A DNA stretch of 64,000 bases from an uncultured virus (IMG/VR IMGVR_UViG_2811995274_000001). Taxonomy: Duplodnaviria; Heunggongvirae; Uroviricota; Caudoviricetes. Location: the IMG/VR virus record IMGVR_UViG_2811995274_000001; one strand, given 5' to 3'. Positions 7,523 through 54,700 of this stretch are shown here, in pieces. Position 1 is the first letter of the stretch; each line of letters opens with the position of its first letter. The notes beneath the pieces were generated by a model. That model was not told the DNA's origin and did no database searches. It saw only the letters and a program-made list of their open reading frames with translations. A program made the position numbers and the translations under genes.

Positions 7523-7554
7523 AAAGATTACTTCCTTTCTTTTTTAATTAAATA

Positions 7555-30934: not shown

Positions 30935-30963
30935 AAAATAAAAATACATAAGGAGTGATAATT

Positions 30964-31716
30964 TTGGCAAGATCTGTTGCTTCAGATTATGCACGTACAT
31001 ATACAACATTTTCTGGTTGTGATATAGTTGCAACATTTGGTAACGTTGTTATAGGTGCACTTCAAGCTATTACATATCATGTACAGAGAGAAAAAGCCCC
31101 TGTTTATACAATGGGCTCACCAGAACCACGTTCCTTTAGTCGTGGTAAACGTGGAATTGCTGGTACTCTTGTATTTACAATTTTCGATAAAGATGCTTTA
31201 ATTGATGCATTAGCAGACGAAGTATTAGAAGAAGAAAGCTTTCATAGAATAGGTGGAGACATTTCTCAACAAGCCATCTCAATAGATGAATGGGATGAAC
31301 AAATGACTAAAATGGCAGTAGATGGAAATACACCTGCATCTACTAATTCTGAAACAATTACAAATAACATAGCTCCGGCTTCTAGACCTGTCTATGATGA
31401 TGAAATTCCTCCATTTGATATTACTATCAGTTTTGCTAATGAATATGGTCAAAAAGCTTCTCTTGTTTTATACGGTGTCGAAATTTTAAATGAAGGTTCT
31501 GGTTTTAGTATCGATAACGTAACAAGTGAAAAAGCTTGTACATTTGTTGCTCGTAGAGTTAAATATCTTGCACCAGTAGATGCTTCAGGTACTCCACAGT
31601 CTATTGGAGCTGATGCTGTATCTACATCAACATCTAATTCTACATCAAGCACTAATACTAAAAATAGTAATGTAACTAGTGCTGGAACTAGCTATTCTAA
31701 TGGTTCAATAGTTTAA
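30964..31716 (+). CDS. tail tube protein
   Basis: follows the sheath; TFSGCDI, RGKRGIAGTLVF, DEIPPFDITISFANEYG; TTG start after AGGAGTGA. Confidence 0.8.
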   Translation: MARSVASDYARTYTTFSGCDIVATFGNVVIGALQAITYHVQREKAPVYTMGSPEPRSFSRGKRGIAGTLVFTIFDKDALIDALADEVLEEESFHRIGGDISQQAISIDEWDEQMTKMAVDGNTPASTNSETITNNIAPASRPVYDDEIPPFDITISFANEYGQKASLVLYGVEILNEGSGFSIDNVTSEKACTFVARRVKYLAPVDASGTPQSIGADAVSTSTSNSTSSTNTKNSNVTSAGTSYSNGSIV

Positions 31717-31738
31717 TAAAAATAAATAAAGCAGTAAT

Positions 31739-31778
31739 AAAAAGTTGAGGGCATTAAAACCTTCAACTTTTTATTTTT
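31739..31778 (+). terminator. intrinsic terminator
   Basis: AAAGTTGAGG...CTTCAACTTTTTATTTTT. Confidence 0.7.
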
Positions 31779-31791
31779 ATAGGAGGAAAAT

Positions 31792-32712
31792 ATGGCAGAA
31801 CAAAAAACTAGTGTCAACAGAAGTGTTGCTTCTGCTTATTCAAATAAATATATAAGTTTTTCTGGACATGATATGGTATGTGTATTTGAAATACCAATAA
31901 CTGGAAAAACAATAAGTAAAGTAGTTGGTTCATTACAAACAGTTACATATAGCGTGCATCAGGAAAAAACTCCTGTAAGATGTATAGGTGATATGAATGC
32001 TAAAGGATATGTATTCGGACCAAGAACTATTGCAGGAACATTAATTTTTACAGTTTTTAATAAACATTGGGCACAAGATATGATGGAAGAATATTTAGAT
32101 GCATATAAAATAAATGCACATTTCTTAGTAGACGAATTACCTCCCATTAATATTACTATTAGTTTTGCCAATGAATATGGTAATAAAGCACGTTTAGCAT
32201 TGTATGGAGTAACTTTTATTAATGAAGGACAGGTAATGTCTATTAATGATTTATATACAGAAAATACTTTTCAATTTTTTGCTACAGATATAGATTATTT
32301 ATCAAATATAGCATCTAGCACATCTGGCAAGCCAAATCACAGTAATAGTGATTTACCAGATGTACCAAATTCAAATGATTCTTCAAGTTCTTCAACAACC
32401 GAGAATAATACTTCTACTGATGACGCAGATAATGATAATAATAAAAAACCTTATTTTTATGATATAAGAAATACAGTAACTGAATACATACAATTTACTT
32501 CAAAAATTTCAGAAGCTAAGGCAAATGAATTATTAACAAAATTATTTTTAGATAGAGCAGATTATATTGATGAAGTTAATAAATTATATTCAGATAAAAA
32601 AATTACTGAAGCAGAAAAGCAAACTCAATTAGATAAAATTAATTCAGATTATCGCTTAATTAAAAATATTATAAATAATAATACTAAAAAAGAAGGAGAT
32701 ACAACAAATTGA
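31792..32712 (+). CDS. tail tube paralog with a C-terminal extension
   Basis: FSGHDM, GPRTIAGTLIF, DELPPINITISFANEYG. Confidence 0.75.
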   Translation: MAEQKTSVNRSVASAYSNKYISFSGHDMVCVFEIPITGKTISKVVGSLQTVTYSVHQEKTPVRCIGDMNAKGYVFGPRTIAGTLIFTVFNKHWAQDMMEEYLDAYKINAHFLVDELPPINITISFANEYGNKARLALYGVTFINEGQVMSINDLYTENTFQFFATDIDYLSNIASSTSGKPNHSNSDLPDVPNSNDSSSSSTTENNTSTDDADNDNNKKPYFYDIRNTVTEYIQFTSKISEAKANELLTKLFLDRADYIDEVNKLYSDKKITEAEKQTQLDKINSDYRLIKNIINNNTKKEGDTTN

Positions 32713-42300: not shown

Positions 42301-42767
42301 ACGATATTTTAAAGATAGTTTCTCCACAATTAAAAAAAGCATTACTTATATCATGGGGAAAAATTAAAAATATCGATGATGAAGATATAGAAGATGAAAA
42401 TAAAAACTTTTTTAATAATCATTTCTTACCTTCTGAAGCATGGGTAGGATGGCGTCCAGATGTAGATTTAAAAGATATTAAAGTAAAAACAATAGATAAT
42501 GAAGCAATGAATTTATCTGATTTTGGTTTTTACGAATCTCAATTACGAGATCCAAATGTTATAAACGCTACTCCAATTAATATGTATGATAGTAATATAT
42601 CTAATTTAAATAATAACATAAAAAAAATATTAGAAGGACAAGGATTAAAAGATGTTGACGTTAGTATATCAACATCTGCTAATGGAACAGCTACTCAAAT
42701 TATAGCTAATATAGCTACTTTTACAGGATTAAGCGAAATAAATAATATGATTAATAATTCATTTTAA
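36369..42767 (+). CDS. giant tape-measure-position protein with TM-like segments and a degenerate SNase-like domain
   Basis: 2132 aa right after the chaperones; Gly-rich hydrophobic segments; VSEVL..GDTIYKLAGVRV...NGQNVANLMLE. Confidence 0.55.
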   Translation: MDNEKIEKTQNKNDDSFSTRGIVKAAVALAATTAFFYKTGRIKSLSNKLNKGYMLTKDIQRAYDARLSGDVTLSNVKNFYNDIRASRLKRKDEFEQNPIILDVNSNSNFFGYINSLSNIKNKQLSVANKQFIKKYYINPTRQMFDNSISENIDENSRNRFYNYIRDMSYSLGNFEKMSRIRQKYKFKEENKQALIDIDSFLQKQYNDFDNKKSEVIKQVNNQFDELYNKAFDIDKLEKEFGHKKNTFVETLLDDRAATIEDILKNKSKLRKTNIYHKDNDQTFLDDIIDNIEQLRKNIREQHGEEAEKRFLNITPDKKGLRVNSKNELYSIGIIRNIQNDLLNIGANTLPGKILRLRSFEQRNKAPFFMFYEEGTFDPVLASLTNKNNLTNNKYLDSSYYQLGKDLYKVLDNGSLEEVKLKDDLHLISGIYGTEQKLIRQIMGQTRYKESSNSIFNKLDLFQDREEYSGNIIERFKSIFTKFDNPEWRYNKFNKFFNPTNSQKEELTEQYNKRNTDPFSYNYAIQYTNDYNLLNSFFKENIYDINRKSINELNVQSTEAKDYLQIILNSNDDEIIDNLLTYNAERKNDILNKNLEDIINRIYNDKYSAQQSIKLKTDREGSNLSTSIFDIFNTEPNNETASIVNQLKVEITKEAFLQEAKNTVKNSEQQYDYKSIFNMIEGISDNQEKEYAMQLASHTIFENKTGINIFNHDRTSDSLWKEITRVNSILNSSDDETDRIVRENLYNIVKKRVNNLESIPGQGLEDIEDPQELPEWIHIGNTVTPISIINNLNNLTKLKNNTTKSFTQFIAGRDDPGNITTLSLVPYFFVSRLSDDLNKIGLGFSKDSTGSTHELIANFAFKRILPAAIAGTYLEWADDTSQELTGTSISGALANSVANVDLTTRKLFDTIGLTDWLKKEKQINPIMQYWGDHNEFMSYDERKEWYESGYEPVRKGAWWTFGGVNEARGSEISYWQPSFARRINSDYKDKSLYDGYFDKWSHSLLPTPSNPFSPIFAILDPYWLEDKHEDDRPYAISGNMFAEGTPWGAILNSTIGEYIKPKIELHPYRLNNGIDLYAMLHQINDYIKNKAQDLSEQNTFSLKGSSIEPVQSVNYNSINNNSSIYSINIHNDGNNHVTITDSTTTVNNNYNSIPQIVNSNNVYLSNGYYNTVNLKPITFNDLDSQADEVSVSEYMHNELLDQNNNYYQNNSIVTDSNGNLNILKFYKQHINEDYYDFSLEDSLRLDKVINGDNSGLKSTLINAIEKINPLDTIKKINENTKKTGLSNNQNIDNNDDNENISEDKLKFYTPSQNMDILNNSYEIAELINAKKGSDFVKDSATSFRLLAGMYGYIANLTIGLGDNTAKTIATSSDINSFSRTFWDMNLGGAGGDVMEIVRRVIPDFKRGTRINPLMNEMPDWLPERFKFGDPFTLIPKGEMRLPGAGYESLNELHPDIYGDYGAFDRFKILADIAPFTPEFKLWKNIATKTIKDPSLIEEMDEILNRVNQQGKKHDFYDYKVVGKNLNYENVVVSEVLGYGKFRSGDTIYKLAGVRVKGNDQETAQDVLNKYIHVGDIITVATDQDIITGTNKDKDSTINAAVIDANGQNVANLMLENNDAVKKKGDTSAPATLLNYSPLQKILAYGSEIIAHTDIPWISDQFLRVRSPLESYSAEQVYGTPYQSWSHPINTFLLPAIERAIHEPSIMPKFIYNQLKNTKNIPKKLSDAMFLFGDRGAFIGAALSSLLYPKNGKMIMKGASLSSDILNILRFAHGSNGYTSEIFSGVGLGYNIAKFLEKDTKIGAVIGGLSGLVYRAILGDTNWIPDRTIKKWNTEEYFDRLTYLKYMGLYHIAAEKAKEEEDIDIEKLQKDLEKQEEIRHVLSDKLEKIKEALNDTKNSSEKNNLLKLVNSKINALEPQETIVKGGEWTHTALIYKKAAENTITALKPGASWSQILTALPTNDREYFIEFVKERNPEKRNDILKIVSPQLKKALLISWGKIKNIDDEDIEDENKNFFNNHFLPSEAWVGWRPDVDLKDIKVKTIDNEAMNLSDFGFYESQLRDPNVINATPINMYDSNISNLNNNIKKILEGQGLKDVDVSISTSANGTATQIIANIATFTGLSEINNMINNSF

Positions 42768-42877: not shown

Positions 42878-45800
42878 ATGGATAACATATTTGAACAAGA
42901 TTTACATATACAAGAAGTAAAAAGAAGATATGATCAATTATTAAATACTACAGTAGAAAAAAGTATTTTAGAAAAACAAACAAAAGAAGATAGAATATTA
43001 TATTATTCAAATTATACTAAATGGAAAGAAAAATTCTCTGATGTAATCAATAATTATAAAGAAAAGAATATTTCTGCTATACCATCTATAGCTATTAATA
43101 GGATTAATAATACTGTTAATTTATTTAACACGAGCGGAATTACTATAGTTTCACAAAAAAAATTCAATATAAATAATAATTCTAAAAATATTACTGAATA
43201 TAATAATGTGAATAATTTTTATAAAAAACACGGATATGACATATTTAATGCTATAGAAACTGGACATTCTAAAAATAATAGTATTAAAAATTTAAATTAT
43301 GATTTTGATTTAAGTTATTCTTTTGAAGAAAATAAAAGTGCTATTCCCTCAAAAAGATTAATTGATTCTTTTAATAATATAAATAAAAAAAATAAATTAA
43401 TGGTTTTTGACTTAGAAACTATTAGTGGTACAGACGTAAATAATAAGATAAAGTTAAGCCAAATTACCGATTTTACGTTTAGTCTTTTTGATGCTAAAAC
43501 TAAAAAAGAAATAAAAACTTATTCCGCTATAATAGGTGCAACGTCTGAGCAATATGATGATTATTTAGATATAATAAATAAATTTAGAAAAGCATCAGGA
43601 GAAGTTACTAATTATGAAAAAGTTGCTTTTGAGCGCTTAAAACTTATTGGAGCTTCTGAAATAGATTTTAGCAATATAGACAAAGGAATAGCAAAATTTA
43701 CTAAATTTCCTACAAGCAAAGAAGTTCCTGGTATAGATATTGATTTAGCACAAAAAGGTGCTGATATTTTAAAATATATTGGAGAAAAACAACAAAAATC
43801 TAAATTAGTAAAATATAATAATATTAAAATGTATTCTTGGGAAAAGTCATTATTTGAAGCATTAGATACAGTGATTGATAAAGATATAACTATTGCTGGA
43901 CATAATATTCAAAATTTTGATATACCTATGATTTCAGAAACATTATATTCTAAAATGCATTCTGATGGTGCAAAAGCTTATGTTGCAAAAAAATATCAAA
44001 ATGGTTTTAAACCTAAATACATAGCAGATACTTTGGTAGCAGAACGATTATATGGTAATGATATTCCGATATCCGAAAATCATATAAAAGCTGCTAAAGA
44101 AAACGACTTAACTACTCGTACTCAAGAAGCTTTAGTAAGAGCATTTTTTCCTGATTTCTATGAAGAAAATGGAGCACATTTATCTTCTGTAGACGTTGAA
44201 GCTAATGCAAAACTTATTCTTGAATCAGGAAGATATGATACTTCCGGGAATGATAAAAATAGTATTTTTCCTAAAGGCACAAACACAAAACGTATACAAA
44301 TAAAAGATGGATCTAAACAATTGTTTTTAGCTCCTAAAGGAATGCTTCCTGCGGCTCATAATCTTATTGCTTTTACTAAGGATTTTATTAATAATAACTA
44401 TCATACAAATGATAAATTTTTAATAACTAATAATGATGTTAAAGATGAATTATTTGGACAATCTGCATTACAAAAAGATATAGCGTATACTATTAAAAGT
44501 ATACATAAAATAAATATAGATGATGTAATAAAAGATGATATACGTAAAATCAATCCTAGTTTATACGATAATGAATTATATTCAGTTTCTTTTTTGCCAG
44601 TAATAAATGATACTGAAACTACTGATATTAAATCAAATACACCTATAACATTATTAGGTACTAAAAACAATATTGAGAAATATATCAGTGAATTACGATT
44701 AGTAGCAGAAAAAGATACTAATAATGAATGGAGTACTGAAAATATTCCAGACGAAAATTATCGAAATTTAAAATATATTACAGTACAAAACGGATCTATT
44801 GTAGAAAATGTTATTCCAAAAACATATGATGGTATTCAAACAATTTTAGATCAAAGTACACATGCTGTATTGAACGAATCAGCTGCTAGAAAAATTCGTG
44901 ATACACAATATAGTTGGAATAAAAAAATGATCAAATTGCTTGATGAAATAGATAAATATGTAGAGGCAAATAGTGATGAAAATACATCTGATTATGAAAA
45001 ACGTAAATTAAGAAATGATTTTATAAATAAAGAAATAAAAAAAGCACAAGATATTGAATTAAAAAGAAATAATGGAGAAGCAATCTCTTCACAAGAATAT
45101 GGTGCTTTTCATAAAATATTAGGTTTTCATCCATTAAATGATAAAAATTCTTATAAAGTTTATAGTAACACTATTCATTCGTCTATAAATGCTATAGATT
45201 ATTTTTACGCTAATAGAGATGTAATTAAAACTGCTATAGATTTTACAGAAAATCAAGACATAGATTTAAAAAACACTCAGGAACTAGATAGCACTTTTTC
45301 TTATTTTTATAGAGGATTAATGTCTAAAGCAGAACTAGAAAAAGGACCAGAAGCTATAGGAAAAATTAATACTGCTTTACCTTATTCTGATTATCAATTT
45401 GAAATAGATTTAAATGGATATAAAGGACGAACTTTTGATGACAATATTTTAAAAGTAGATTTAAATAATCCTAATGCTGGATATAATTTAATAAACAATC
45501 TTTTTAGTAAACAAGGAATCAAAAAGATTTCTAAAATTACAGAAGAAAGCAAAGTAGCAGAGTTAAAAAGATTTCAAGATTTTTTATTTAAAAACAATAA
45601 AAAAATAGATTCTAATTTTGATAATACTGAACCAAGTATACGAATCAATAAGTTTAATGACTATTTACGTATAGATCCATCAAAAGATAATTTATCAACT
45701 TCTATAGATAAAATAATTTATAATTTAAAAAAAATAAAAGAAATAAACCCATTAAGTGGTATAATTTCTGATTCAGTACATTATGATGTAATTAATCCTA

Positions 45801-48800
45801 CATATAAAAATTTTGGATTAAGTAAAGAAGAAATATATTCTTCTGCGTTATTACTAGAAAAAGAAAAACCTAATTTTAAAACAAATAAAGATTTTCCATT
45901 ACAATATCATGTAAATAATATAGTAGATAATATTATTTTTCAAAAAATAGCTGATTCTCCAGAAAAAGAAATTGAAGAAATTGCTAATAGAACTAAATTT
46001 AATAAAGAACAAGCTAGTGCTTTACATAGAATTAGAAACATTAAACGTGAAGAAACAAAAGATTTATTTAATTTTTTGTTAGGTGCAGTAGTCAATGCTG
46101 GTGGAGAATTTAAATATGATATAAATAATAAAACTCTTCACATTAAAGAAAAAGATAATTGGATAAAAATAGATGATATTTTTAAAGATGTAATCACTGA
46201 TAGCGGAATGATGTATATGCAAATTGGCAACACTCAAACCGCATCTCCGTATGGATATTATTTACTAGGTTATAATGAAACTACTAAACGATTAAGTGCT
46301 AATACTAGAATTGCATACGCTAAAGATTCTATAGGTTGGGCTAAAAGTAAAATACTAGAAGCAGCTACAGATCCTAATTCTGAAGAAACAATAGCTAGTG
46401 AATTTCAGAGAGCTATAAAGAAATTTAATCAAGTATTAAGACAAGCTTCATCAAATTCTAAAGAAGATATGCAAGACATGAAAATGGCTTCTTGGTTTGA
46501 TGTTGAAGGTTTATGGAAAACGTTACCAGATATGTATCAAAAAGGCTTTTTAAATAATTTTAAAGAGCTAGAAACTATCCCTGGAACAGATAAAATAAAT
46601 AATTTAAGTTTAAAAAATATTTTTCATGAATTTTTAGAAGAATATTCTAATAAAGAAGTAGATGTCGATAATTTAGATAATAAATATATTGTAGCCATAA
46701 ATGAATACTTGCCTAATATAATACAAAACGGCATAGTTGATGATTATATAGAAACACATAATCTTACTAATTCTACATATTTACATGCCAATACAGCAGA
46801 TGAGTATGTAAAATCAAATTTAGTTGCAGTAAACAAAAAGAGCGCAAATGCCATATTAAGTTTTAATGAAAATTATAATTATGGTGAAAGAGAAGGTATT
46901 TTATCTCGTGGAATAAATAATCAGATCGCTAGAGCTAAAAGTTTTAATGCTGATTATGTTGAACAACAAATATCTTCTGGAGAATTAAATGATGTTCAAA
47001 TTGGTTCTCCTATTGAAACAGAGCATAGATCTTTACAAAAAACTAATAAACATGGCTTAATCTATAAAATTAATGATACAGTAATGGCTAGAAGGTTAAA
47101 TGTTACAACAGGAGATCTTCGTTTAATACTTGAACATAGTGATTTAGACGAACAAACAATGGATTTCTTTAGCACAATAACTACCAACGAAGGTTCTTCT
47201 GCTATTACTCCACAGTTAGCTTCTTACGCATTTTCTAGTAGAGATTCTATTCAAAAAATAAATATTAATAAATTATTAGAGGAAAATGGAGAATTTTTAC
47301 AAAGATTAAATGAACGTAATAATATAACTCCTACTTTATCTATCAAAGATGGAAAAATTGTTTTTAATTATTCTAACGGACTATTCGTTCAAGAAGGAGA
47401 ACAATTAGCATATATAAAAGGATGGCAAGAAGCTCAAGATGATATTGCTTCAAAAAGAGATGGCATACTAAAATATGGTATTTTCTCTTCAAACTCTATG
47501 CTTGTAGACGAGAAAAGTATAGAAACACTTTTAAATAAAGGTATTACAAAAGAACAAAAAGATTTATTAACTAACTATTTATTAGAGTCTCAAAATAATA
47601 AAAAAGACTTAAATGTTTCTTCTATTAGAGCATGGAATTTATTCCAACAAATCCTTAAAGATAATAATTTTAATTCATATTTATACGTAGATTCAATAGA
47701 TATGTCCGCCAATATTAAAATAGCCCAAATGGAAAAAGAAAAAGGCATGGCAAAAGTAATTGCTCCATCTATTGGTTCGTTAAATACTAACATAAAAAAT
47801 GTTATAGAAGAATTAGTTGGAAAAGGATCTAGCGTAGAGGTTAAAAACGGTAAAATAGTTAAAAGATATGGTGCCGATAATATTTTACATCTTATACCTA
47901 ATAGAAGCATTATAGATTCTATAATTACTAGTGATTCTATAGCTGATTCTATGTTTGGTAAAGTCTTAAGTGGATATAATAAAGATAAAAAACAACTAAC
48001 CGATAACGAAATTATTGATTCACTTAAACGAAATGGATTTAATGATAAAACTGATTTTTATAATGCTATTTTAGAAGAACAAAATTATTATTCAAATGAA
48101 TTAAATAGAATTTTAAGACAAGCCGGTATTACAAAAAATAATGAATGGATTAATGTTATTGGACATACTAATGCTGAAGTATTAAAACATCAAGATACAG
48201 ATTTTGCTAAAAATGCTATATCTCAACTATTGTCTGAAGACAATTCAATAGAAAATAAACAAAGAATAGTTGAAGAATTAAGTAGTTCTGTTATAGGAAT
48301 ACATCTAGATGATAATAATAATATAGTTGTTCCCGATAGTTCGTATCACAATGTAGAAGAATTAAATAAAGCAATTAATAAATTATTAATTGACGATAAT
48401 GGAAAATTTGTAACAGATAGAGTATTTTATTATAACGATAAAAATATGATATCTGAACAAGAATATAATCAATTATCTGATGATGAGAAAAAGCAATATA
48501 AATCTAATATAAATGAAGTAGATTTTATTCCTGTACGTCAATTACCAAACTATGATAAAGAACGTGTAAAAGCTGTAGATGATGCTTACGGAAAATCTAC
48601 GTATTTAACAGATAGACATTTAGAGATATTATCTAAAAGAAGATATGATGATAATACATTAAATATATTACATAAACGTTTAATAGACGAATTTGGAGAA
48701 AATGAAGGAAATAAAAAATATAACAAACTATATGGTAATATAAAAAATAATGATTATATATTTAAAGAATTGATTAGTAGTTTAAAAAATAAACGCTATA

Positions 48801-51679
48801 TGCAAGATGGAGACGATCTATTAGTAAAATTTGATGATAAAGGAAATAAAGTAGCTTTTTACAAAAACGCTGATCAAAATAAACAAGCAAAAATTGCAGC
48901 TAAAAAAGCAAGAGACAAATTAATAGAGCAAGGAATAGATGAAAAATATATAAATGCTTTTATTGATGTAGCTAGAAAAAGAGGAGCTAGGGGAGTAAGT
49001 TCTTCATATATTGAAGGTAATTATACTGCATTAAGATTCTCTCAAGCAATGGAATTTAATAATAACAATAAAAATTTTACATTAGATTTTATGAAAAAAG
49101 ATGGTTTTATTGTTAAATCAATTTCTGATATATCAACTGCTACAGATATAGATGCTAATCTAGAAAATTCAATGTATGGCAAAAATCTAATTATAGATTT
49201 ACACATGGATCAATTAGGAAATAAACAGTTATATAAAAATGAAAACGAACGCTATATAGCTATTCCATTTGCTAATCCTAAATATATGGATAAAGACTAT
49301 AAGATAAGAGAGTCTTTTCAACAAAAATTAAATACTATAAAAGATTTTATGACTACATATCGTGATGATTTATTAAATAATAAAATAAATGATGCAGAAC
49401 AAGAAAATCGATATTTGTCTCTTATAGAACATGTAAAAGAAACTAAGTCCGCTATAGCTGAAGAATTGACAAAAAAACAAACAGGAATCATAGCTAATTT
49501 ATCTAAAATAAATTTATCTGATACTGGTATTTTTAATACTCAAGGTATGCAAATTGTTGGAATTGAGACTATGCATGCATTAAAAGATTTATCTTTTGAC
49601 GGCATTAATTTAGTAGAACAAGCATTAAAGGTAAACAGTTCTAATGGTAAAAAAGGTGTAGACTTTGCATATGCTTTAGCTGGTAGAGCTTATGCGGATA
49701 GATTTTTTAACGAAAAATATTTAAAAGATATCACTAATTCTTTAGGAGTAACAGAAGAAGTATATAGTGATTTTAAAAATAAATTATTTAATAATCTAAA
49801 AACTACTGGAACATTGTCTCTTAATAAACGTGAACCGCAAGAATACGCTGGTTCTACTAATATAAACGCATTATTTTTTAGTGATCATGTTCAAGGAGAT
49901 ACGTTACTTGTTTCAAACACTCTTCAAGAAATTATGAAAAACGATAATGACTCAGACAATATCGATTTTTCTATTTTAAAAGGAGAAGCGGATATCTCTT
50001 ATGCTGATAAAGATGGCTCTATACGTACAATAACAAAAAATATAGATTATGCTACATATAAAACATTATCTAATATGGATAATTTTAGTGTTAGATTACA
50101 TCAAAATACTGCTGAATTATTTGGAGAAGCTAAAAGATCTATGTATGTAGATGCAGCAACATTACATCCTCAATATTATAAATCAGATGCTATGAAAACT
50201 ACAAAAGAATTACGTGAACAAGGTAAGGGGCAAAATCATTTTGATATGCCTTATATGAAAAACTTTACTATTGGTGGTACAGATAGCGGAGATTGGGCTG
50301 AAACTTCATCAAGACAATATACAGATCCAAAAGAATATCAAAGATTATCTACTCAATATGCAAATATAGAACAAAATTTTCTTTCTTCATTAAACGATGA
50401 ACAACAACAAGAATACAATTCTTCTGATCATGCAAAACAAAGAAATATGATTAGAAATTGGGCCGTAAATAATTTTAAAGATAAAGATAATGAATATTTT
50501 GAACAAGTAAAAGACGCATTAGAGTTTAGATTAAATGAATACGATAAAAAACGAGCAACTATTATAGCTAATGCTAATAAACAAGCGGCTGGTAGTTCTA
50601 ACTATGTAATACATAAATATCTTCGTAGAATTGGAGAATCTAATGTATTTAATGGAACAGAATTGTCCGATATAATGCATATTAGTACAGCATTATCAGA
50701 ATCGTTTTTGAGTCCGAAAAACGAACGTGGAAGTATAAATTATAGATTCATAGATGAATTAAGAGATGCAACAGAAAATATGTATTCAGCAGCAAAAAGT
50801 CATGATCAATCTAGAATAGAAGAAGCTCAAAATAATATGGTTGATACTTTAAATTCTTTATTGTCGTCTAGAAAAGAAAAAGAATTATCAAAATTAATTC
50901 CAATAGAAGGAATGAATTCTGAAGAACGTATTCAACATGCATTTAGAACATATGCTTCATTAGCATCTAGAGTTGATTTATCTCAAGTTAGTGATCAGAC
51001 AGAATCTATAGGTACAACACGAAAAGGTGCTTCACAATTATCAGTTTATAAAGATAGTAGTGTTCCTACACAAGAAGTACTCCAAGATATTAATTATGCT
51101 AGTGAGATTGCTACTAATAGAAGTATAGCTAAAACATTGAATGGTCCTATAGAAAGTAATATATCCAAACTAGATAATAATACACCAGATTTAATAGATA
51201 CTATTAATAATAATGTAGAAATGCCAACCATTGAAGACAACATTATAAGAGATAGCTCTAAACAAATTGAAAACTTTTCACGTAAATTAAGTCAAAATTT
51301 TCATTTTAAAGCTAGTAATTTTATAGCTGGTATCGGCGCTGGTATATTATTAACAGGATATGGTTCTACTCCTTCAACTCCAGCAGAAACTCAAGCAAAT
51401 GGAGCTCAAGAAGAATATAACGAACAATATCAACAGCCAATTACCTTTTCTGATATATCTACTCAACAACAATCGAACGGAGCTCCAAGCTATATAATTA
51501 ATATTTCTGGTAGCTCTCCTAATGGGCAACAAGAACAAATTGTAGATGCTATTAATACTGCTATAAATAGTCAAATTCCTAATAATACTTCTATTAATTT
51601 ACAAATAAATACATCATTTGCTGATAAAATATCTCAATCACAAATCAATAAAATGGTAGTAAATAGTTTATTTAATTAA
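42878..51679 (+). CDS. probable virion two-barrel RNA polymerase fused to an N-terminal DEDDh 3'-5' exonuclease
   Basis: 2933 aa; exonuclease VFDLET / GHNIQNFD / AHLSSVD; beta-like NEGS, GLFVQEGEQL, KIAQMEKEKG; beta'-like KREP...NDNDSD. Confidence 0.72.
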   Translation: MDNIFEQDLHIQEVKRRYDQLLNTTVEKSILEKQTKEDRILYYSNYTKWKEKFSDVINNYKEKNISAIPSIAINRINNTVNLFNTSGITIVSQKKFNINNNSKNITEYNNVNNFYKKHGYDIFNAIETGHSKNNSIKNLNYDFDLSYSFEENKSAIPSKRLIDSFNNINKKNKLMVFDLETISGTDVNNKIKLSQITDFTFSLFDAKTKKEIKTYSAIIGATSEQYDDYLDIINKFRKASGEVTNYEKVAFERLKLIGASEIDFSNIDKGIAKFTKFPTSKEVPGIDIDLAQKGADILKYIGEKQQKSKLVKYNNIKMYSWEKSLFEALDTVIDKDITIAGHNIQNFDIPMISETLYSKMHSDGAKAYVAKKYQNGFKPKYIADTLVAERLYGNDIPISENHIKAAKENDLTTRTQEALVRAFFPDFYEENGAHLSSVDVEANAKLILESGRYDTSGNDKNSIFPKGTNTKRIQIKDGSKQLFLAPKGMLPAAHNLIAFTKDFINNNYHTNDKFLITNNDVKDELFGQSALQKDIAYTIKSIHKINIDDVIKDDIRKINPSLYDNELYSVSFLPVINDTETTDIKSNTPITLLGTKNNIEKYISELRLVAEKDTNNEWSTENIPDENYRNLKYITVQNGSIVENVIPKTYDGIQTILDQSTHAVLNESAARKIRDTQYSWNKKMIKLLDEIDKYVEANSDENTSDYEKRKLRNDFINKEIKKAQDIELKRNNGEAISSQEYGAFHKILGFHPLNDKNSYKVYSNTIHSSINAIDYFYANRDVIKTAIDFTENQDIDLKNTQELDSTFSYFYRGLMSKAELEKGPEAIGKINTALPYSDYQFEIDLNGYKGRTFDDNILKVDLNNPNAGYNLINNLFSKQGIKKISKITEESKVAELKRFQDFLFKNNKKIDSNFDNTEPSIRINKFNDYLRIDPSKDNLSTSIDKIIYNLKKIKEINPLSGIISDSVHYDVINPTYKNFGLSKEEIYSSALLLEKEKPNFKTNKDFPLQYHVNNIVDNIIFQKIADSPEKEIEEIANRTKFNKEQASALHRIRNIKREETKDLFNFLLGAVVNAGGEFKYDINNKTLHIKEKDNWIKIDDIFKDVITDSGMMYMQIGNTQTASPYGYYLLGYNETTKRLSANTRIAYAKDSIGWAKSKILEAATDPNSEETIASEFQRAIKKFNQVLRQASSNSKEDMQDMKMASWFDVEGLWKTLPDMYQKGFLNNFKELETIPGTDKINNLSLKNIFHEFLEEYSNKEVDVDNLDNKYIVAINEYLPNIIQNGIVDDYIETHNLTNSTYLHANTADEYVKSNLVAVNKKSANAILSFNENYNYGEREGILSRGINNQIARAKSFNADYVEQQISSGELNDVQIGSPIETEHRSLQKTNKHGLIYKINDTVMARRLNVTTGDLRLILEHSDLDEQTMDFFSTITTNEGSSAITPQLASYAFSSRDSIQKININKLLEENGEFLQRLNERNNITPTLSIKDGKIVFNYSNGLFVQEGEQLAYIKGWQEAQDDIASKRDGILKYGIFSSNSMLVDEKSIETLLNKGITKEQKDLLTNYLLESQNNKKDLNVSSIRAWNLFQQILKDNNFNSYLYVDSIDMSANIKIAQMEKEKGMAKVIAPSIGSLNTNIKNVIEELVGKGSSVEVKNGKIVKRYGADNILHLIPNRSIIDSIITSDSIADSMFGKVLSGYNKDKKQLTDNEIIDSLKRNGFNDKTDFYNAILEEQNYYSNELNRILRQAGITKNNEWINVIGHTNAEVLKHQDTDFAKNAISQLLSEDNSIENKQRIVEELSSSVIGIHLDDNNNIVVPDSSYHNVEELNKAINKLLIDDNGKFVTDRVFYYNDKNMISEQEYNQLSDDEKKQYKSNINEVDFIPVRQLPNYDKERVKAVDDAYGKSTYLTDRHLEILSKRRYDDNTLNILHKRLIDEFGENEGNKKYNKLYGNIKNNDYIFKELISSLKNKRYMQDGDDLLVKFDDKGNKVAFYKNADQNKQAKIAAKKARDKLIEQGIDEKYINAFIDVARKRGARGVSSSYIEGNYTALRFSQAMEFNNNNKNFTLDFMKKDGFIVKSISDISTATDIDANLENSMYGKNLIIDLHMDQLGNKQLYKNENERYIAIPFANPKYMDKDYKIRESFQQKLNTIKDFMTTYRDDLLNNKINDAEQENRYLSLIEHVKETKSAIAEELTKKQTGIIANLSKINLSDTGIFNTQGMQIVGIETMHALKDLSFDGINLVEQALKVNSSNGKKGVDFAYALAGRAYADRFFNEKYLKDITNSLGVTEEVYSDFKNKLFNNLKTTGTLSLNKREPQEYAGSTNINALFFSDHVQGDTLLVSNTLQEIMKNDNDSDNIDFSILKGEADISYADKDGSIRTITKNIDYATYKTLSNMDNFSVRLHQNTAELFGEAKRSMYVDAATLHPQYYKSDAMKTTKELREQGKGQNHFDMPYMKNFTIGGTDSGDWAETSSRQYTDPKEYQRLSTQYANIEQNFLSSLNDEQQQEYNSSDHAKQRNMIRNWAVNNFKDKDNEYFEQVKDALEFRLNEYDKKRATIIANANKQAAGSSNYVIHKYLRRIGESNVFNGTELSDIMHISTALSESFLSPKNERGSINYRFIDELRDATENMYSAAKSHDQSRIEEAQNNMVDTLNSLLSSRKEKELSKLIPIEGMNSEERIQHAFRTYASLASRVDLSQVSDQTESIGTTRKGASQLSVYKDSSVPTQEVLQDINYASEIATNRSIAKTLNGPIESNISKLDNNTPDLIDTINNNVEMPTIEDNIIRDSSKQIENFSRKLSQNFHFKASNFIAGIGAGILLTGYGSTPSTPAETQANGAQEEYNEQYQQPITFSDISTQQQSNGAPSYIINISGSSPNGQQEQIVDAINTAINSQIPNNTSINLQINTSFADKISQSQINKMVVNSLFN

Positions 51680-51751: not shown

Positions 51752-54700
51752 ATGGCGTCTGAAAATTACAATTCTGATTTTAGTGGTTATATAGTAGATC
51801 CAAAGAAATTTTTAACTCCAGAAATGGGCGATTACTATATAGGTGCAATTGACGATACATATTTAAAAAAAATAAACTCTATTATAGAAAACAAAGACTC
51901 TAGTAAAACTAATAAAAAAGATGCTCAAAAAGCTGCTTACTATACAGAAAAGCCACCATTTTTAAATGATGGCTTAGGCAGTTTTAATAATGTTAATTTT
52001 ATTAAAACTAATATAAATATAACTGATGAAGATATTGAGCTAGGCTTAATAAGTCCTACAACATTACTAATAAATTCTACAAAAATTATATCTGATAATA
52101 ATGAGAAAGTTCTTGCTAGTCTAAAAGAAAATTTAGAAATATCCGATAACGATGTAAAAGATTATGCCTTTTTTGTTAAATTAATAGGAATAAAAAATAT
52201 GAATAAATCTAAATGGTATATAGATACTTCCATTAATTTAAAAACAATTCCTATAGAAAATAATAGATATTCAGATATATTAAATAATAATAATTATATA
52301 TCTAGTTTTGAACATAATAATGATGATATAGTACAATACATAAAAATAGGAAATAAATGGCATGAAATTAAAAATACATCAAATGGAGTACATGTATGTA
52401 TAGATTCTGGAGATAATAATTATAACGCTGTTATAGAAAATATAAACATATTAAAAGATTTAATAAATAAAGCAAACAATGAAGTGTATTTTGTTATAGA
52501 TAATTATCCTTCTAATAAAATATCTATAGAAACAGATTCTTCATATATGTTAGGAAACTCTACATTAGAAAATGAATTTAAAAACAAAGAAAATATAAAT
52601 AATATAAAATCTGGATATTTTAGATGTTTTATCGAACCTAAAAGATTTTTAAATGCTAGTGCATATATAAAAATAGATAATAAATGGATTAATTTAGCAA
52701 AAGCAATATTATCGAATCCTAAAAATAATGCTTTATATGATACTACGTATAACGGAGTAAATAAAGATATTTTTAAACCAGATTTTTATGATCCTAATTA
52801 TTCTAAATATGCAGATGATTTTTATGAAGATGCTAAATTATTAGATGACAGGAGAGATATCCAGAAACAAATATTTGGTATGGATTTTGATTCCTTGAAT
52901 GATTGGACTGTTACTATAGGAGACGTTACTTTATTTGTTCCGCCAAGCAATATAACAGTAATTTCTACCATAGACAATACCTCTGTTCCATTACTACGAG
53001 CTAAAGGTAGTATGTCTAAAACAGGATTACATAGTAATAAAGTATTAAATTTTTCTATTTACTTTAATGAAGATAGAGGTATCAATGGCTACGAATATAA
53101 AACTAAATTACCTAATGGTAATGAGATTACATATAAAATGAATGGATTAAGAGCTTTAATTTCACAGTTTAAATTTTGTCCATTTTTACCAATAAATAAT
53201 AAATATATTAATCAAACCTTAGATATAGACGCTGTGGTTGTTACTGGCTTATCTATATCTAATTTAGAAGGATATCCTAAGACAATCAAAGTTAATTTTA
53301 CATGTAAAGAATTTGATTATTTAACGTATATACCAGATATAATAAATCAATTTGATGATCCAGATAAATATATAAATTATTTCGCACTAAGTTTTAATTG
53401 GCCAACAATGAGATATTATTATCAACGTCCTATTTTAGCTGGAGATGATTTAGCATCTAAAAAGTATGAATTTAATTCTGATAATTTTAATACAGAAATA
53501 ATGAAAAATAGAACTCTATTGTCACCAATGTCATTTATGGATCCTACAATTAAATTTTTTCTTGCTGACAAAACTTATTTAGATGAATTATATGATATGT
53601 ATTTAGATGCTAATCGCATAGCTCAAACAGGAGTTAAATTTAATCAAGACGATAAGGATAATTTAACACAATTATCTTTTGTTTTTGAAGCTATTAAAAG
53701 TGTATCTGAAAGTGAAGATTTCATAAAAACACTAAATGAATTAAACACAATAGAATTTAAAAAAATTACTAGTACTACAACTGGAGATAGATATAGTGAA
53801 CAAAATCTTAATATAGTTCCTGAGATACGTCCAGCAAAAGAAAAAATAAATAATATATTAGATATGTTAAATAAAAAAGTTACATCTATAAATGAGACTA
53901 TAGGACATAACTTAATAAACAAAACATATTATAGTTATGATAAAGTATCAATAAACGATACTGAATTTAAGATATATTGTAGTTTAAATATTGTATTAAA
54001 TACTCCAGTAAGCGATAAAGATGCATTTGATAATTTAGGATTTGCATGTTCTAATTTTTTAAATACGCAACAAAATAGAACATTACAAGAAAATACTATT
54101 GTAGTTCCGATTACGGCTATTTTAATAAAAGATGATAATGATGATAGCTTTTATAGTTCATCATATTGTATAAAAAAAGGAACCTTTTCTCTTGATTGGG
54201 AAGATGCAGATATGACAGTTCTTTTATTTTCTACTAAAGCAAAAGAACAAGAAACAATGGTAAAAAGTTATAATTTAAGTTTTAAAAATACAGAAAATAT
54301 ACCATTTAATGAATATGATGTTGGCACTGTAAGAATAAAAAGTTATAGTGCTATTTTAGCTAATCACGTATCTCAAATTTATTTAAAAGATATCGATGGT
54401 ACTGCTCCTCAATATTTGGGCGGAGAAGATATGATTTTTTCTATCGTTGTAGAAACTACTGATGAAAAAACAGTACGAACGTTAAGTAATTTGCCAAAAA
54501 TAGTTTCTAGTTTTACTAGAAAATATAAATCTATAATGCCATGTTATCCTTTAAGAATAGATTCAGAAATAACAAGATTTTTAGGTACTTTTGAAATGAT
54601 CGTTGAAAACGTACAAGCGGTAGCAACAGCTAACGATAATCCTGTACGAACTTTAGTACTTAATCTTAGAGCAGTCGATAGAACGTATAGATCTAGAGAA

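What the first reader, a model, noticed from the sequence alone, without database searches (positions are those of the whole stretch)
42878..51679. Probable virion-packaged two-barrel RNA polymerase within a 2933-aa tail-module protein
Seen in sequence: beta-like motifs occur in the correct order. These are TTNEGSSAI (~47180; cf. beta NFEDSI), GLFVQEGEQLAYIKG (~47378; cf. G..V..GDILVGK) and IKIAQMEKEKGMAKVI (47714-47761), whose two lysines are 8 residues apart as in beta GDKMAGRHGNKG. They are followed by WINVIG (cf. PVDIV) and then the beta'-like LNKREP (R at 49829), 38 aa before DNDSD (49943-49957; cf. NRAP...NADFDGD). Established: crAss-like phi14:2 gp66 and Thermus phage P23-45 gp96 are single-chain two-barrel virion RNAPs. 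Inference: its position between the tape-measure-position gene and the baseplate hub, plus a hydrophobic C-terminal segment (FIAGIGAGILLTG), suggest it is packaged and injected to transcribe early genes.
Basis: partly seen in the sequence, partly recalled or inferred. Interest (0 to 1): 0.92.

Follow-up and report, generated by a model that had tools for sequence, protein, structure and literature searches.

The report
Tail-gene giant: exonuclease plus RNA polymerase
A 2,933-residue protein encoded among the tail genes of an uncultured giant phage contains a cell-type (two-barrel) RNA polymerase core and a DNA-proofreading-type exonuclease, so this contractile-tailed phage probably carries its own transcription enzyme into the host.

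Summary
Taken alone the motifs are at chance level: 1.2 DxDxD expected, one found. They are real because they are conserved. In a 48-row alignment of relatives down to about 20% identity, D2356/D2358/D2360 are each kept in 47 rows, P2320 in 47, R2318 in 45 (+2 K), K1614 and K1622 in 46, and E1438 in 42 (+3 D).

An AlphaFold2 model of residues 1380-2480 (pLDDT 84.9, pTM 0.84) matches only two-barrel RNA polymerases at the top of three fold searches. The best matches are QDE-1 (Z 10.0) and P74 gp62 (Z 9.5); beta'-type and beta-type subunits, P23-45 gp96 and phi14:2 gp66 follow.

The gene lies between orthologues of Bacillus phage 0305phi8-36 gp145 and hub gp147. This is the slot of gp146, annotated as the tape measure and found in virions by mass spectrometry. 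Packaging here is inferred, not shown.

A second, YonO-like polymerase candidate lies at 438-4691 (-).

Verdict: a new variant of the known virion two-barrel RNA polymerases.

The parts
42878..51679 (+). Giant ORF, 2933 aa (P0001). Architecture: exonuclease, unassigned region, two-barrel RNAP core, conserved tail region, hydrophobic segment, conserved C-terminus.
   Evidence: 46 relatives at E<=0.001 among 1.84 billion representatives. Of the 47 relatives aligned in A2 (45 of those 46 plus two closer relatives), 45 are 2485-3555 aa.
43373..44293 (+). DnaQ-type DEDDh 3'-5' exonuclease domain, residues 166-472. Motif residues D178, E180 (FDLET), D348 (GHNxxxFD), H434 and D439 (AHxxxxD).
   Evidence: AF2 model 2 (pLDDT 82.7). 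All 50 rows of the wide VIA search are DnaQ-fold exonuclease or exonuclease-like domains; best is E. coli Pol III epsilon 1j53_A, Z 13.1, rmsd 2.7, 168 of 174 residues aligned. Among the 47 relatives: D178, E180 and D348 in 44, H434 and D439 in 45; the rest are gaps.
44294..47071 (+). Residues 473-1398: well-predicted mixed alpha/beta region with no fold assigned.
   Evidence: Model 2 is confident here, but the exonuclease filled the fold-search lists, so this part is barely tested.
47072..48643 (+). Beta-like (second-largest-subunit-like) half of the polymerase core, residues 1399-1922, with the barrel that carries the two lysines.
   Evidence: Model residues 3-543 align to ASFV RNAP chain B (Z 6.8), yeast Pol I chain B (Z 6.1), Xanthomonas RNAP chain C (Z 6.1) and a plastid PEP chain (Z 6.1). 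QDE-1 and P74 gp62 alignments start at model residue 18-20.
47189..47191 (+). E1438, candidate counterpart of the invariant acidic residue of the beta-type barrel (Rpb2 D837).
   Evidence: 42 E + 3 D of 48 rows. The equivalence to Rpb2 D837 was not checked residue by residue. The list of eight invariant residues comes from PMC2919709 (passages).
47717..47743 (+). K1614 ... E1621-K1622: the two basic residues of the beta-type barrel.
   Evidence: K1614, E1621 and K1622 are each 46 of 48, with 2 gaps. They lie on adjacent strands E233-238 and E242-248 of model 1.
49067..50191 (+). Beta'-like half of the core, residues 2064-2438, with the catalytic barrel.
   Evidence: Model residues 685-1059 align to largest subunits of bacterial, archaeal, eukaryotic, vaccinia, AR9 and phiKZ RNAPs, Z 6.9-8.5. 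Foldseek E about 2e-4 to 2e-3.
49829..49837 (+). R2318-E-P2320, the R-x-P signature (Rpb1 R446/P448).
   Evidence: R 45 + K 2 of 48; P 47 of 48. It is the only R-x-P in the protein.
49943..49957 (+). D2356-N-D2358-S-D2360, the metal-binding DxDxD triad.
   Evidence: 47 of 48 for each Asp. The family pattern is D[NYF]D[SG]D.
50192..51319 (+). Residues 2439-2814, including the strongly conserved TALxExFLSPKNExG block (about 2604-2618). This is where the bridge helix and trigger loop would be expected. Most of this stretch (2481-2814) was not modelled.
   Evidence: Conservation.
51320..51364 (+). Gly/Ala-rich hydrophobic segment FIAGIGAGILLTGYG (residues 2815-2829).
   Evidence: Conserved as a hydrophobic G/A-rich stretch in 45 of 47 relatives. 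It does not reach a Kyte-Doolittle 19-residue mean of 1.5. 0305phi8-36 gp146 has WMAGIGAAAFAV at the matching place.
51488..51676 (+). Conserved C-terminal domain (SYIINISG ... NSLFN).
   Evidence: Y2873 in 46 of 47 and N2876 in 44 of 47 relatives (P0002 numbering; one residue lower, Y2872 and N2875, in the window protein). Weak, non-significant hhalign match to the C-terminus of 0305phi8-36 gp146 (E 0.063).
36369..42767 (+). Upstream giant gene (2132 aa), orthologue of 0305phi8-36 gp145, WH1 gp096, Moorella CDS0026 and ME3_35.
   Evidence: blastp E 1e-67 to 6e-100. gp145 was detected in virions by mass spectrometry, per the record note.
51752..59758 (+). Downstream giant gene (2668 aa), baseplate hub with cell-wall-degrading part; orthologue of 0305phi8-36 gp147.
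   Evidence: phrog_20474 E 2.3e-165. tblastn to the hub genes of MTATph1, WH1, Edson, KLEB27-3, 0305phi8-36 and ME3.
28016..32712 (+). Tail sheath (28016-30934), tail tube (30955-31716) and tube paralogue (31792-32712), which fix the contractile-tail context.
   Evidence: PHROG tail-sheath families, E 4e-58. phrog_9206. Same gene order as 0305phi8-36 ORF139-141.
438..4691 (-). Candidate second (non-virion, YonO-like) two-barrel RNA polymerase, 1417 aa (P0050). K632-Y-P-K-M-H637 at 2781-2798 and D697-F-D-S-D701 at 2589-2603.
   Evidence: Both motifs are invariant in 6 sequences. 20 of the 30 listed ESM Atlas clusters, led by the three at 0.93-0.94, carry PF05183 RdRP as their only common family (30-46% of members in those three). 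No fold was obtained.

Best explanation
What it is. The ORF encodes a multi-domain virion protein of a jumbo contractile-tailed phage of the 0305phi8-36 lineage. Residues about 1400-2440 are a single-chain two-barrel RNA polymerase core. A beta-like barrel carries K1614/K1622, and probably E1438. A connector follows. A beta'-like barrel then carries R2318-x-P2320 and the Mg-binding D2356-x-D-x-D2360. Residues 166-472 are a DEDDh 3'-5' exonuclease with all five catalytic residues. The C-terminus has a Gly/Ala-rich hydrophobic segment and a conserved end domain.

Proposed mechanism:
1. The protein is made late with the tail genes and built into the particle, in the slot that its nearest cultured lineage assigns to the tape measure.
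2. It is expelled through or with the tail at infection. The C-terminal hydrophobic part stays at the envelope or channel.
3. The polymerase core transcribes the first-entering phage genes without the host enzyme.
4. Those early genes plausibly include the YonO-like polymerase at 438-4691 (-), which would take over later transcription. This is the cascade shown for Thermus phage P23-45.

Shown here: the fold, the catalytic-residue conservation, the exonuclease fold and the synteny. Inferred: packaging, ejection, DNA-dependent RNA synthesis, the cascade, and any role for the exonuclease (for example trimming the entering DNA end or RNA 3' ends).
For: Fold:
- AF2 model of residues 1380-2480: pLDDT 84.9, pTM 0.84, from a 25-row alignment.
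- Foldseek against PDB: all 50 listed rows are RNAP chains, 18 at E<=0.001.
- VIA second look: QDE-1 Z 10.0 (251 aligned, rmsd 4.5), P74 gp62 Z 9.5, P32 gp64 Z 9.3, then beta'-type chains Z 8.0-8.5.
- Search of 48,161 representative chains: only 3 reach Z>=8 (QDE-1, P74 gp62, M. tuberculosis beta'), and ranks 1-22 are all RNAP entries, including P23-45 gp96 and phi14:2 gp66.
- BFVD: crAss-like giant proteins and giant-virus and phage RNAP subunits among the matches.

Residues: seven of the eight residues named as invariant in all two-barrel polymerases (PMC2919709, passages) have clear counterparts kept in 45-47 of 48 rows. The eighth has a plausible counterpart, E1438.

Exonuclease: Pol III epsilon Z 13.1, all 50 rows DnaQ-fold; five catalytic residues kept in 44-45 of 47 relatives.

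Virion context:
- The gene lies between orthologues of gp145 (E 1e-67) and hub gp147 of 0305phi8-36.
- The same three-giant-gene order occurs in MTATph1, WH1 and ME3.
- WH1 gp095 shares the N-terminal exonuclease (hhalign probability 95.5, E 1.5e-8) and has R-Y-P followed 36 residues later by DHDGD. ME3_36 has R-E-P followed by DHDQD.

Precedent: P23-45 gp96 is a tape-measure-fused virion two-barrel RNAP paired with a non-virion one (PMC10770324, sections 6, 11-13).

Second polymerase candidate in the window.
Against: - No experiment and no virion proteomics exist for this phage. Packaging rests on synteny.
- Direct similarity to the MS-verified 0305phi8-36 gp146 is not significant (hhalign E 0.11 and 0.063). 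gp146 and Moorella CDS0027 have no DxDxD at all, so the virion-detected protein is not itself shown to be a polymerase.
- No sequence method recognises the polymerase: Pfam, PHROGs, NCBIfam and PDB sequences gave nothing.
- The Z scores of 6-10 lie in the range the tool calls 'middling'. The argument rests on the list being exclusively RNAPs and on the motif match, not on Z alone.
- Bridge helix and trigger loop were not located.
- A folded polymerase core of about 1000 residues cannot pass a tail tube without unfolding. The route into the cell is unknown.
- The hydrophobic segment is short and does not reach a usual transmembrane hydropathy threshold.
Confidence: 0.7

Rival explanations
1. 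The polymerase and exonuclease are real enzymes, but the protein is not packaged. It is simply encoded in the late/tail block and works inside the infected cell, for example as a late-gene RNA polymerase or a nucleic-acid-processing enzyme.
For: Packaging is untested here. The only proteomic evidence is for 0305phi8-36 gp146, which lacks DxDxD. An 18-bp hairpin (dG -22.2 kcal/mol, z -9.4) separates this gene from the upstream one, so it may be its own transcription unit.
Against: All 45 full-length relatives keep the C-terminal hydrophobic segment and end domain typical of tail-internal proteins. The gene sits strictly between two structural genes in five lineages. The phage already has a separate intracellular-type polymerase candidate. 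The WH1 homologue is annotated as a virion structural protein (basis not seen).
Confidence: 0.12
2. It is essentially a tape measure or tail-internal structural protein. The two-barrel module is an exapted, non-catalytic scaffold.
For: Hardies et al. assigned the tape-measure role to the positional equivalent orf146 from tail length (PMC2147016, passages). The sequence diverges fast, as tape measures do.
Against: A scaffold would not keep all three aspartates, R-x-P and both lysines in 45-47 of 48 rows at about 20% overall identity, nor all five exonuclease catalytic residues. The 2300 modelled residues are globular domains, not a helical ruler.
Confidence: 0.08
3. The two-barrel core is a polymerase of another specificity working together with the proofreading-type exonuclease. 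It might make DNA as archaeal PolD does, make primers, or copy RNA as QDE-1 does. It would not be a transcriptase for early genes.
For: The fused exonuclease is most like the replicative proofreader Pol III epsilon and PolC/B-family editing domains. PolD is a two-barrel DNA polymerase that works with an exonuclease (PMC10770324, section 11). The best structural match, QDE-1, has both RNA- and DNA-templated activity (abstract listing).
Against: The top matches are RNA polymerases of every kind. DEDDh enzymes in the same list also act on RNA (RNase T, Orn/REXO2, 3'hExo, PARN), so the fold does not imply DNA proofreading. The phage lineage has its own replication genes in 0305phi8-36.
Confidence: 0.08

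Closest known systems
Thermus phage P23-45 gp96, the tape-measure-fused virion two-barrel RNA polymerase (PDB 8H2M/8H2N; Chaban et al. 2024, PMC10770324)
   Same: A single-chain two-barrel RNAP inside a giant tail-module protein that also has membrane/hydrophobic parts. It is paired with a second, non-virion two-barrel polymerase in the same genome. Structural match Z 6.5-6.7 across both barrels.
   Different: gp96 has the polymerase at its N-terminus (DFDGD at 779-783), belongs to a non-contractile siphovirus, carries a metallopeptidase, and no exonuclease is described. Here the core is central (DNDSD at 2356), follows a DEDDh exonuclease, and belongs to a contractile-tailed jumbo phage. No sequence similarity was found. 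The tape-measure role is uncertain here.
Cellulophaga crAss-like phage phi14:2 gp66, virion RNA polymerase (PDB 6VR4)
   Same: A giant (2180 aa) virion protein with two barrels in one chain in the order beta-like then beta'-like. It is flanked by two other large virion genes. Most of the chain is of unknown fold. Match Z 6.0, 355 residues aligned.
   Different: It is a podovirus. Its motif is DFDID, with a non-Gly fourth position as here (S2359). It has a cleft-blocking domain, and no exonuclease is described. There is no detectable sequence similarity.
Neurospora QDE-1 and the YonO / PF05183 RdRP-type single-chain two-barrel polymerases
   Same: Best structural match: Z 10.0, 244-251 residues, both barrels.
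   Different: No PF05183 hit for this protein or for 15 relatives. QDE-1 is a cellular RNA-silencing enzyme. In this window the YonO-like member is more probably the other gene, 438-4691 (-).
P23-45-group non-virion RNAP (P74 gp62, PDB 8F5M; P32 gp64, PDB 8F72)
   Same: Second-best structural match, Z 9.3-9.5 over model residues 18-1050.
   Different: Those are about 600-residue stand-alone enzymes that are not packaged.
Bacillus phage 0305phi8-36 gp146, 'hypothetical tape measure protein'
   Same: Same slot between the gp145 and gp147 orthologues. Similar size (2537 aa). Similar C-terminal AGIGA hydrophobic segment. Detected in virions by mass spectrometry (record note).
   Different: It has no DxDxD and no significant profile match. 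Its only exonuclease hint is a DIETTG motif at residue 1223.
E. coli DNA polymerase III epsilon and other DEDDh exonucleases (for residues 166-472)
   Same: Fold match Z 13.1, rmsd 2.7, 168 of 174 residues. D-E-D-D-H residues are all present.
   Different: No Pfam RNase_T hit. Here the domain is fused to a polymerase of the two-barrel class, not attached to a right-hand or C-family DNA polymerase.

Membership tests
Two-barrel (double-psi beta-barrel) nucleotide polymerase superfamily | Two DPBB domains facing one active site | tested here: met
   This rests on a predicted model only. Model 1 (pLDDT 84.9) matches single-chain two-barrel RNAPs across model residues 18-1052. It matches beta-type subunits on 3-543 and beta'-type subunits on 685-1059. 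Isolated DPBB proteins match 835-990 (ranks 32, 39, 41).
Two-barrel (double-psi beta-barrel) nucleotide polymerase superfamily | DxDxD metal-binding triad in the beta'-type barrel | tested here: met
   D2356, D2358 and D2360 are each 47 of 48 rows.
Two-barrel (double-psi beta-barrel) nucleotide polymerase superfamily | Invariant Arg and Pro (Rpb1 R446, P448) about 30-40 residues before the triad | tested here: met
   R2318 is 45 R + 2 K and P2320 is 47 of 48, with 36 residues from P to the first Asp. The feature list is from PMC2919709.
Two-barrel (double-psi beta-barrel) nucleotide polymerase superfamily | Two basic residues in the beta-type barrel (Rpb2 K979, K987) | tested here: met
   K1614 and K1622 are each 46 of 48. 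The spacing is 8 here and 7 in 28 of 48 rows.
Two-barrel (double-psi beta-barrel) nucleotide polymerase superfamily | Invariant acidic residue of the beta-type subunit (Rpb2 D837) | tested here: inconclusive
   E1438 (42 E + 3 D of 48) is the candidate. Structural equivalence was not checked at residue level.
Two-barrel (double-psi beta-barrel) nucleotide polymerase superfamily | Bridge helix and trigger loop after the catalytic barrel | not tested
   They would be expected beyond residue 2440, and most of that region (2481 onward) was not modelled. The conserved FLSPKNExG block at 2610-2618 is a candidate only.
Two-barrel (double-psi beta-barrel) nucleotide polymerase superfamily | Template-dependent NTP polymerisation | not testable with these tools
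   Needs biochemistry.
Virion-packaged RNA polymerases (functional class: N4 vRNAP, phi14:2 gp66, P23-45 gp96, phiKZ vRNAP) | Protein present in the virion and delivered to the host | not testable with these tools
   Only indirect evidence is available: the tail-module position and the mass-spectrometry note on the positional equivalent 0305phi8-36 gp146.
Tape measure proteins | Gene directly after the tail chaperone genes; long, mostly helical chain whose length sets the tail length; hydrophobic segment(s) | tested here: inconclusive
   The gene is second, not first, after the chaperone-position genes. About 2300 modelled residues are globular. A short hydrophobic segment is present. Tail length is unknown.
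PF05183 RdRP / YonO family | Match to the Pfam model over its cut-off | tested here: not met
   No hit for P0001, its core fragment or 17 relatives (P0003, P0005 and the 15). No PF05183 match in 4 related phage records either.
DEDDh (DnaQ-like) 3'-5' exonucleases | RNase H-like DnaQ fold with ExoI D-x-E, ExoII D, ExoIII H-x4-D | tested here: met
   Z 13.1 to Pol III epsilon and all 50 rows DnaQ-fold. D178, E180 and D348 in 44 of 47 relatives, H434 and D439 in 45 of 47. Pfam PF00929 itself gives no hit.

The most novel reading that the evidence does not exclude
A whole lineage of jumbo contractile-tailed phages fills its 'tape-measure' slot with an ejected exonuclease-polymerase machine. The lineage comprises 46 sequence clusters in metagenomes, cultured Bacillus phage vB_BceM_WH1 (gp095) and probably Acinetobacter phage vB_AbaM_ME3 (gp36). 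At infection the DEDDh exonuclease would work on the entering DNA end, or on nascent RNA, for a two-barrel RNA polymerase that starts a host-independent cascade handing over to a YonO-like second polymerase. This would be a third, independently diverged class of virion two-barrel RNAP, the first in myoviruses and the first with a built-in exonuclease. It would also mean that the 'tape measure' annotation in this lineage is wrong or incomplete.
Probability: 0.45. Interest if true: 0.85.

Novelty: new variant of a known kind. Interest (0 to 1): 0.74.

Why it matters
Virion-delivered two-barrel RNA polymerases are so far established in crAss-like podoviruses and in the P23-45 group of siphoviruses.

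What this finding adds:
- A structurally supported third family, in jumbo phages with contractile tails.
- A fused proofreading-type exonuclease, an architecture not described in the papers I could search.
- Invisibility to Pfam, PHROGs and NCBIfam. Its members are currently labelled 'hypothetical', 'virion structural protein', 'minor tail protein' or, by position, 'tape measure'.
- Extension of the idea to cultured phages of Bacillus and Acinetobacter, where it can be tested directly. It predicts rifampicin-resistant early transcription.
- With the YonO-like gene in the same window, a two-polymerase cascade like that of P23-45. This bears on how large phages become independent of host transcription and on how a folded enzyme travels through a tail.

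The 2021 jumbo-phage survey credited 0305phi8-36 only with a YonO-like enzyme, and in the passages seen mentions ME3 only in group 2.2, outside the groups it credits with two-barrel enzymes (PMC7824862, passages).

Tried and rejected
Sequence recognition of P0001 failed everywhere:
- Pfam at E<=0.1 and <=10.
- PHROGs, only a 33-residue hit at E 0.0016.
- NCBIfam.
- PDB sequences with profiles A1 and A3: no hit at E<=0.01. The best relevant row was a TREX1-like 'exodeoxyribonuclease III' at E 0.11 on the ExoII-ExoIII stretch.
- tblastn against 50,697 phage records: no match.
- Pfam on 15 divergent relatives: 0 relevant hits.

Profile comparisons:
- A1 or A2 against 0305phi8-36 gp146: not significant (E 0.11, 0.063).
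- A2 against ME3_36: nothing.
- A3 against the P0050 family A4: nothing (E 0.68). So paralogy of the two polymerase candidates is not shown.

Other searches:
- PF05183 in four related phage records (one 94% complete): 0 of 4. The control rang only in B. subtilis and below cut-off, so this is weak evidence.
- P0050 has no tblastn match in phages and no PDB sequence match.
- A scan of bacterial and archaeal genome representatives with A1: 125 pattern matches, none confirmed. The same scan with A3 could not run.
- The window's own assembly is not held.

Fold lists:
- PolD DP2 is not among the rows listed. That does not exclude similarity.
- Foldseek on model 2 gave no row at E<=0.001. VIA gave the exonuclease.

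Smaller checks:
- The simple terminator scan did not call the hairpin after the upstream gene, although it folds strongly.
- The upstream giant gene gave no PDB sequence hit. The nuclease that earlier notes of this scan ascribe to such proteins was not tested.

Literature:
- Searches, and the supplement search of PMC10770324, found no report of a polymerase in the gp146-position gene. The supplement search had no occurrence of ME3, 0305phi8-36, WH1 or Moorella.
- Thomas et al. 2007, the original 0305phi8-36 proteomics paper, is not held.

No complex prediction was run.


Full report
**1. The observation**

- The region 42878-51679 (+) is a single open frame of 2933 codons under the bacterial code.
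- It has a GGAGG ribosome-binding site just before the ATG.
- By composition alone these motifs mean little. 1.2 DxDxD are expected in a protein of this length and Asp content, and one is found. About 25 K-x7-K pairs are expected.
- It is more telling that R-x-P occurs only once in 2933 residues, 36 residues before the only DxDxD.

**2. Context**

- The window is AT-rich, with GC about 0.21-0.32.
- It carries a head-and-tail morphogenesis block on the + strand: terminase, portal, protease, major head protein, a 972-aa sheath, tube and tube paralogue.
- Three giant genes follow, of 2132, 2933 and 2668 aa.
- Close relatives lie on viral contigs of up to 221,928 bp, one judged 94% complete, so this is a jumbo phage.
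- The sheath and the third giant gene find only one cultured lineage: Bacillus phages 0305phi8-36, vB_BceM_WH1, Edson and KLEB27-3, Moorella phage MTATph1 and Acinetobacter phage ME3.
- In all four records examined the order is sheath, tube, tube paralogue, small genes (tail chaperonins in 0305phi8-36), giant 1, giant 2, giant hub.
- Giant 1 of the window is a clear orthologue of 0305phi8-36 gp145, WH1 gp096, Moorella CDS0026 and ME3_35 (blastp E 1e-67 to 6e-100). Giant 3 is the hub with muralytic domains.
- The finding therefore occupies the slot of 0305phi8-36 gp146. The record calls gp146 'hypothetical tape measure protein; identified as virion protein by mass spectrometry'. [quoted passage not shown]

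**3. The family**

- No library recognises the protein.
- An exhaustive HMMER search with residues 1380-2480 against 1.84 billion representatives found 46 proteins at E<=0.001 (26 at E<=1e-30). All but three short fragments are 2485-3555 aa.
- In the 48-row alignment A2 the signature positions are nearly invariant, although identity to the query falls to 17-24%:
  - D2356, D2358, D2360: 47 of 48 each.
  - P2320: 47. R2318: 45 R + 2 K.
  - K1614, E1621, K1622: 46 each.
  - E1438: 42 E + 3 D.
- The family form of the triad is D[NYF]D[SG]D, which includes the classical DFDGD.
- These are the residues that Ruprich-Robert and Thuriaux list as the eight invariant positions of all two-barrel polymerases: three Asp, Arg and Pro in the Rpb1-type barrel; two Lys and one Asp in the Rpb2-type subunit (PMC2919709, passages).
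- The 8-residue lysine spacing is 7 in 28 of the 48 rows.

**4. Fold of the core**

An AlphaFold2 model of residues 1380-2480, built on a 25-row alignment, has mean pLDDT 84.9 and pTM 0.84.

| Search | Result |
|---|---|
| Foldseek against PDB | 18 matches at E<=0.001. All 50 rows shown are chains of multisubunit RNA polymerase entries: bacterial, plastid, yeast Pol I/III, phage AR9 and phiKZ non-virion enzymes |
| VIA-align second look | QDE-1 first (Z 10.0, 251 residues, rmsd 4.5; Z 9.8 twice). Then P74 gp62 (Z 9.5) and P32 gp64 (Z 9.3), all spanning model residues about 18-1052, that is both barrels. Then beta'-type chains at Z 8.0-8.5 on model 685-1059 |
| Independent search of 48,161 representative chains | 3 chains at Z>=8 (QDE-1, P74 gp62, M. 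tuberculosis beta'). Ranks 1-22 are all RNA polymerase entries |

- The ranks 1-22 include largest subunits of vaccinia, human Pol I, Drosophila Pol II, archaeal, AR9 and phiKZ enzymes on the C-terminal half.
- They include second-largest subunits (ASFV chain B Z 6.8, yeast Pol I chain B Z 6.1, Xanthomonas chain C Z 6.1) on model 3-543.
- They also include P23-45 gp96 (Z 6.7 and 6.5) and phi14:2 gp66 (Z 6.0, 355 residues).
- Below them come isolated DPBB proteins on model 835-990.
- The tool warns that Z of 7-8 is common for unrelated models. The weight therefore lies on three things together: the list is exclusively polymerases, the two halves match the two different subunit types in the predicted order, and the invariant residues fall in those halves.
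- I could not obtain coordinates for a residue-level superposition.

**5. The exonuclease**

- The five-sequence alignment already showed FDLET, GHNxxxFD and AHxxxxD near the N-terminus.
- A second model, of residues 150-1349 (pLDDT 82.7, pTM 0.61), gives a DnaQ fold for residues 166-472. The best match is E. coli Pol III epsilon at Z 13.1, rmsd 2.7, 168 of 174 residues.
- All 50 rows are DEDD-type exonuclease or exonuclease-like domains, among them PolC, DinG, 3'hExo, TREX1, ExoI, REXO2, RNase T, Cas2-DEDDh and B-family editing domains.
- Foldseek alone had no row at E<=0.001, but the same families led its list.
- The five catalytic residues are kept in 44-45 of 47 relatives.
- The ESM Atlas look-up listed one DnaQ-like cluster among 30 at score 0.93.
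- Residues 473-1398 are confidently modelled but remain unassigned, because the exonuclease filled the lists.

**6. Links to cultured phages**

- WH1 gp095 (2515 aa, 'virion structural protein') matches the family's exonuclease domain by hhalign (probability 95.5, E 1.5e-8). It contains N-R-Y-P followed 36 residues later by DHDGD at 1996.
- ME3_36 (1603 aa) contains S-R-E-P followed by DHDQD at 1217.
- The two best BFVD matches of model 1 are a 1258-residue chunk (E 2e-8, 1175 columns) and a 'minor tail protein' of an uncultured phage (E 2.4e-8). A chunk of an ME3 protein scores 8.5e-4.
- From the chunk lengths I infer, but could not verify, that the first is the second half of WH1 gp095 and the ME3 chunk is the second half of ME3_36.
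- By contrast 0305phi8-36 gp146 and Moorella CDS0027 have no DxDxD and no significant profile match.
- What they share with the window's protein is the slot, a DxETTG motif at another position, a similar AGIGA hydrophobic segment about 120 residues from the end, and a weak C-terminal resemblance.
- So the polymerase module is widespread in this slot, but it is not universal.

**7. A second polymerase**

- The 1417-aa ORF at 438-4691 (-) has K-Y-P-K-M-H (632-637) and G-L-D-F-D-S-D (695-701). Both are invariant in its six-member alignment.
- 20 of its 30 listed ESM Atlas clusters, led by the three at 0.93-0.94 (200-205 shared features), have PF05183 RdRP as their only common family, on 30-46% of members in those three.
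- This fits the YonO-like orf99 of 0305phi8-36 (PMC2147016; PMC7824862).
- It has no Pfam, phage tblastn or PDB sequence hit. No profile similarity to the giant protein was found.

**8. Mechanism**

- The best-supported reading is a packaged, ejected exonuclease-polymerase that transcribes the first genes to enter. A YonO-like enzyme would follow. This is analogous to the gp96 then gp64 cascade of P23-45 (PMC10770324, sections 6, 12, 13).
- Shown here: the fold, the catalytic residues and the synteny.
- Inferred: packaging, ejection, template and product, the cascade, and what the exonuclease does.
- phi14:2 gp66 transcribes only single-stranded or denatured DNA in vitro (preprint passages). 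That makes an end-resecting role for a fused 3'-5' exonuclease an attractive but untested idea.

**9. Known or new**

- My searches of the held library and of the supplements of PMC10770324 found no report of a polymerase in this gene or its relatives.
- The 2021 jumbo-phage survey credits 0305phi8-36 only with the YonO-like enzyme and, in the passages seen, places ME3 in group 2.2, outside the groups it credits with two-barrel enzymes.
- Subscription papers are not covered, and the 2007 proteomics paper was not available.
- Earlier AI notes of this scan describe the same exonuclease-plus-polymerase-motif giants in four other uncultured jumbo phages. These are not independent evidence. They do show that the pattern recurs, and in two of them the fold could not be confirmed, which the present models now do for this member.
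- I class the finding as a new variant of a known kind (virion-associated single-chain two-barrel RNA polymerases), with interest 0.74.

Noticed in passing
window 438-4691 (-): A 1417-aa ORF with invariant KYPKMH (2781-2798) and DFDSD (2589-2603). Its nearest ESM Atlas clusters carry PF05183 RdRP. It is probably a YonO-like second (non-virion) two-barrel RNA polymerase, the counterpart of 0305phi8-36 orf99. No fold was obtained.
   Followed up: partly
window 42765-42812: A perfect 18-bp hairpin directly after the stop codon of the upstream giant gene (RNA dG -22.2 kcal/mol, z -9.4, 0 of 200 shuffles as good). The consensus terminator scan did not call it. It may separate the two giant genes transcriptionally or stabilise the mRNA.
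   Followed up: partly
L007 16624-24237 (0305phi8-36 gp146) and L008 15513-19442 (Moorella CDS0027): The positional equivalents in these two phages have no DxDxD. Each has a DnaQ-like DxETTG motif in mid-protein (residues 1223 and 870). The polymerase module seems to be absent or replaced there.
   Followed up: partly
L009 10593-18140 (-) (WH1 gp095) and L010 18173-22984 (ME3_36): Cultured Bacillus and Acinetobacter jumbo phages carry R-x-P followed by DHDGD / DHDQD in the same slot. In WH1 the same N-terminal exonuclease is present. These proteins are annotated only as 'virion structural protein' and 'hypothetical protein'.
   Followed up: partly
window 51752-59758 (+): Besides the phrog_20474 match, the hub giant has a weak His-Me finger endonuclease hit at residues 1219-1250 (E 0.024, below cut-off), next to a DKDTD at 1218. 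It also has a strongly hydrophobic stretch at residues 2276-2310.
   Followed up: no
window 4983-5020, 5980-6017, 6775-6812, 7502-7539, 7746-7783: A five-copy repeat family that is the reverse complement of strong GGAGG/GGAGGTGAT ribosome-binding sites plus ATG, upstream of the minus-strand genes. This suggests a host with Bacillota-type translation signals.
   Followed up: no
window 28016-30934 (+): The tail sheath is 972 aa, but only its last 270 residues or so match known sheath families. The N-terminal 700 residues or so are unassigned.
   Followed up: no
window 36369-42767 (+): The upstream giant gene (gp145 orthologue) sits directly after the chaperone-position genes, the classical tape-measure place. 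Earlier notes of this scan ascribe a nuclease to such proteins in other phages. No family or PDB sequence hit was found here.
   Followed up: partly
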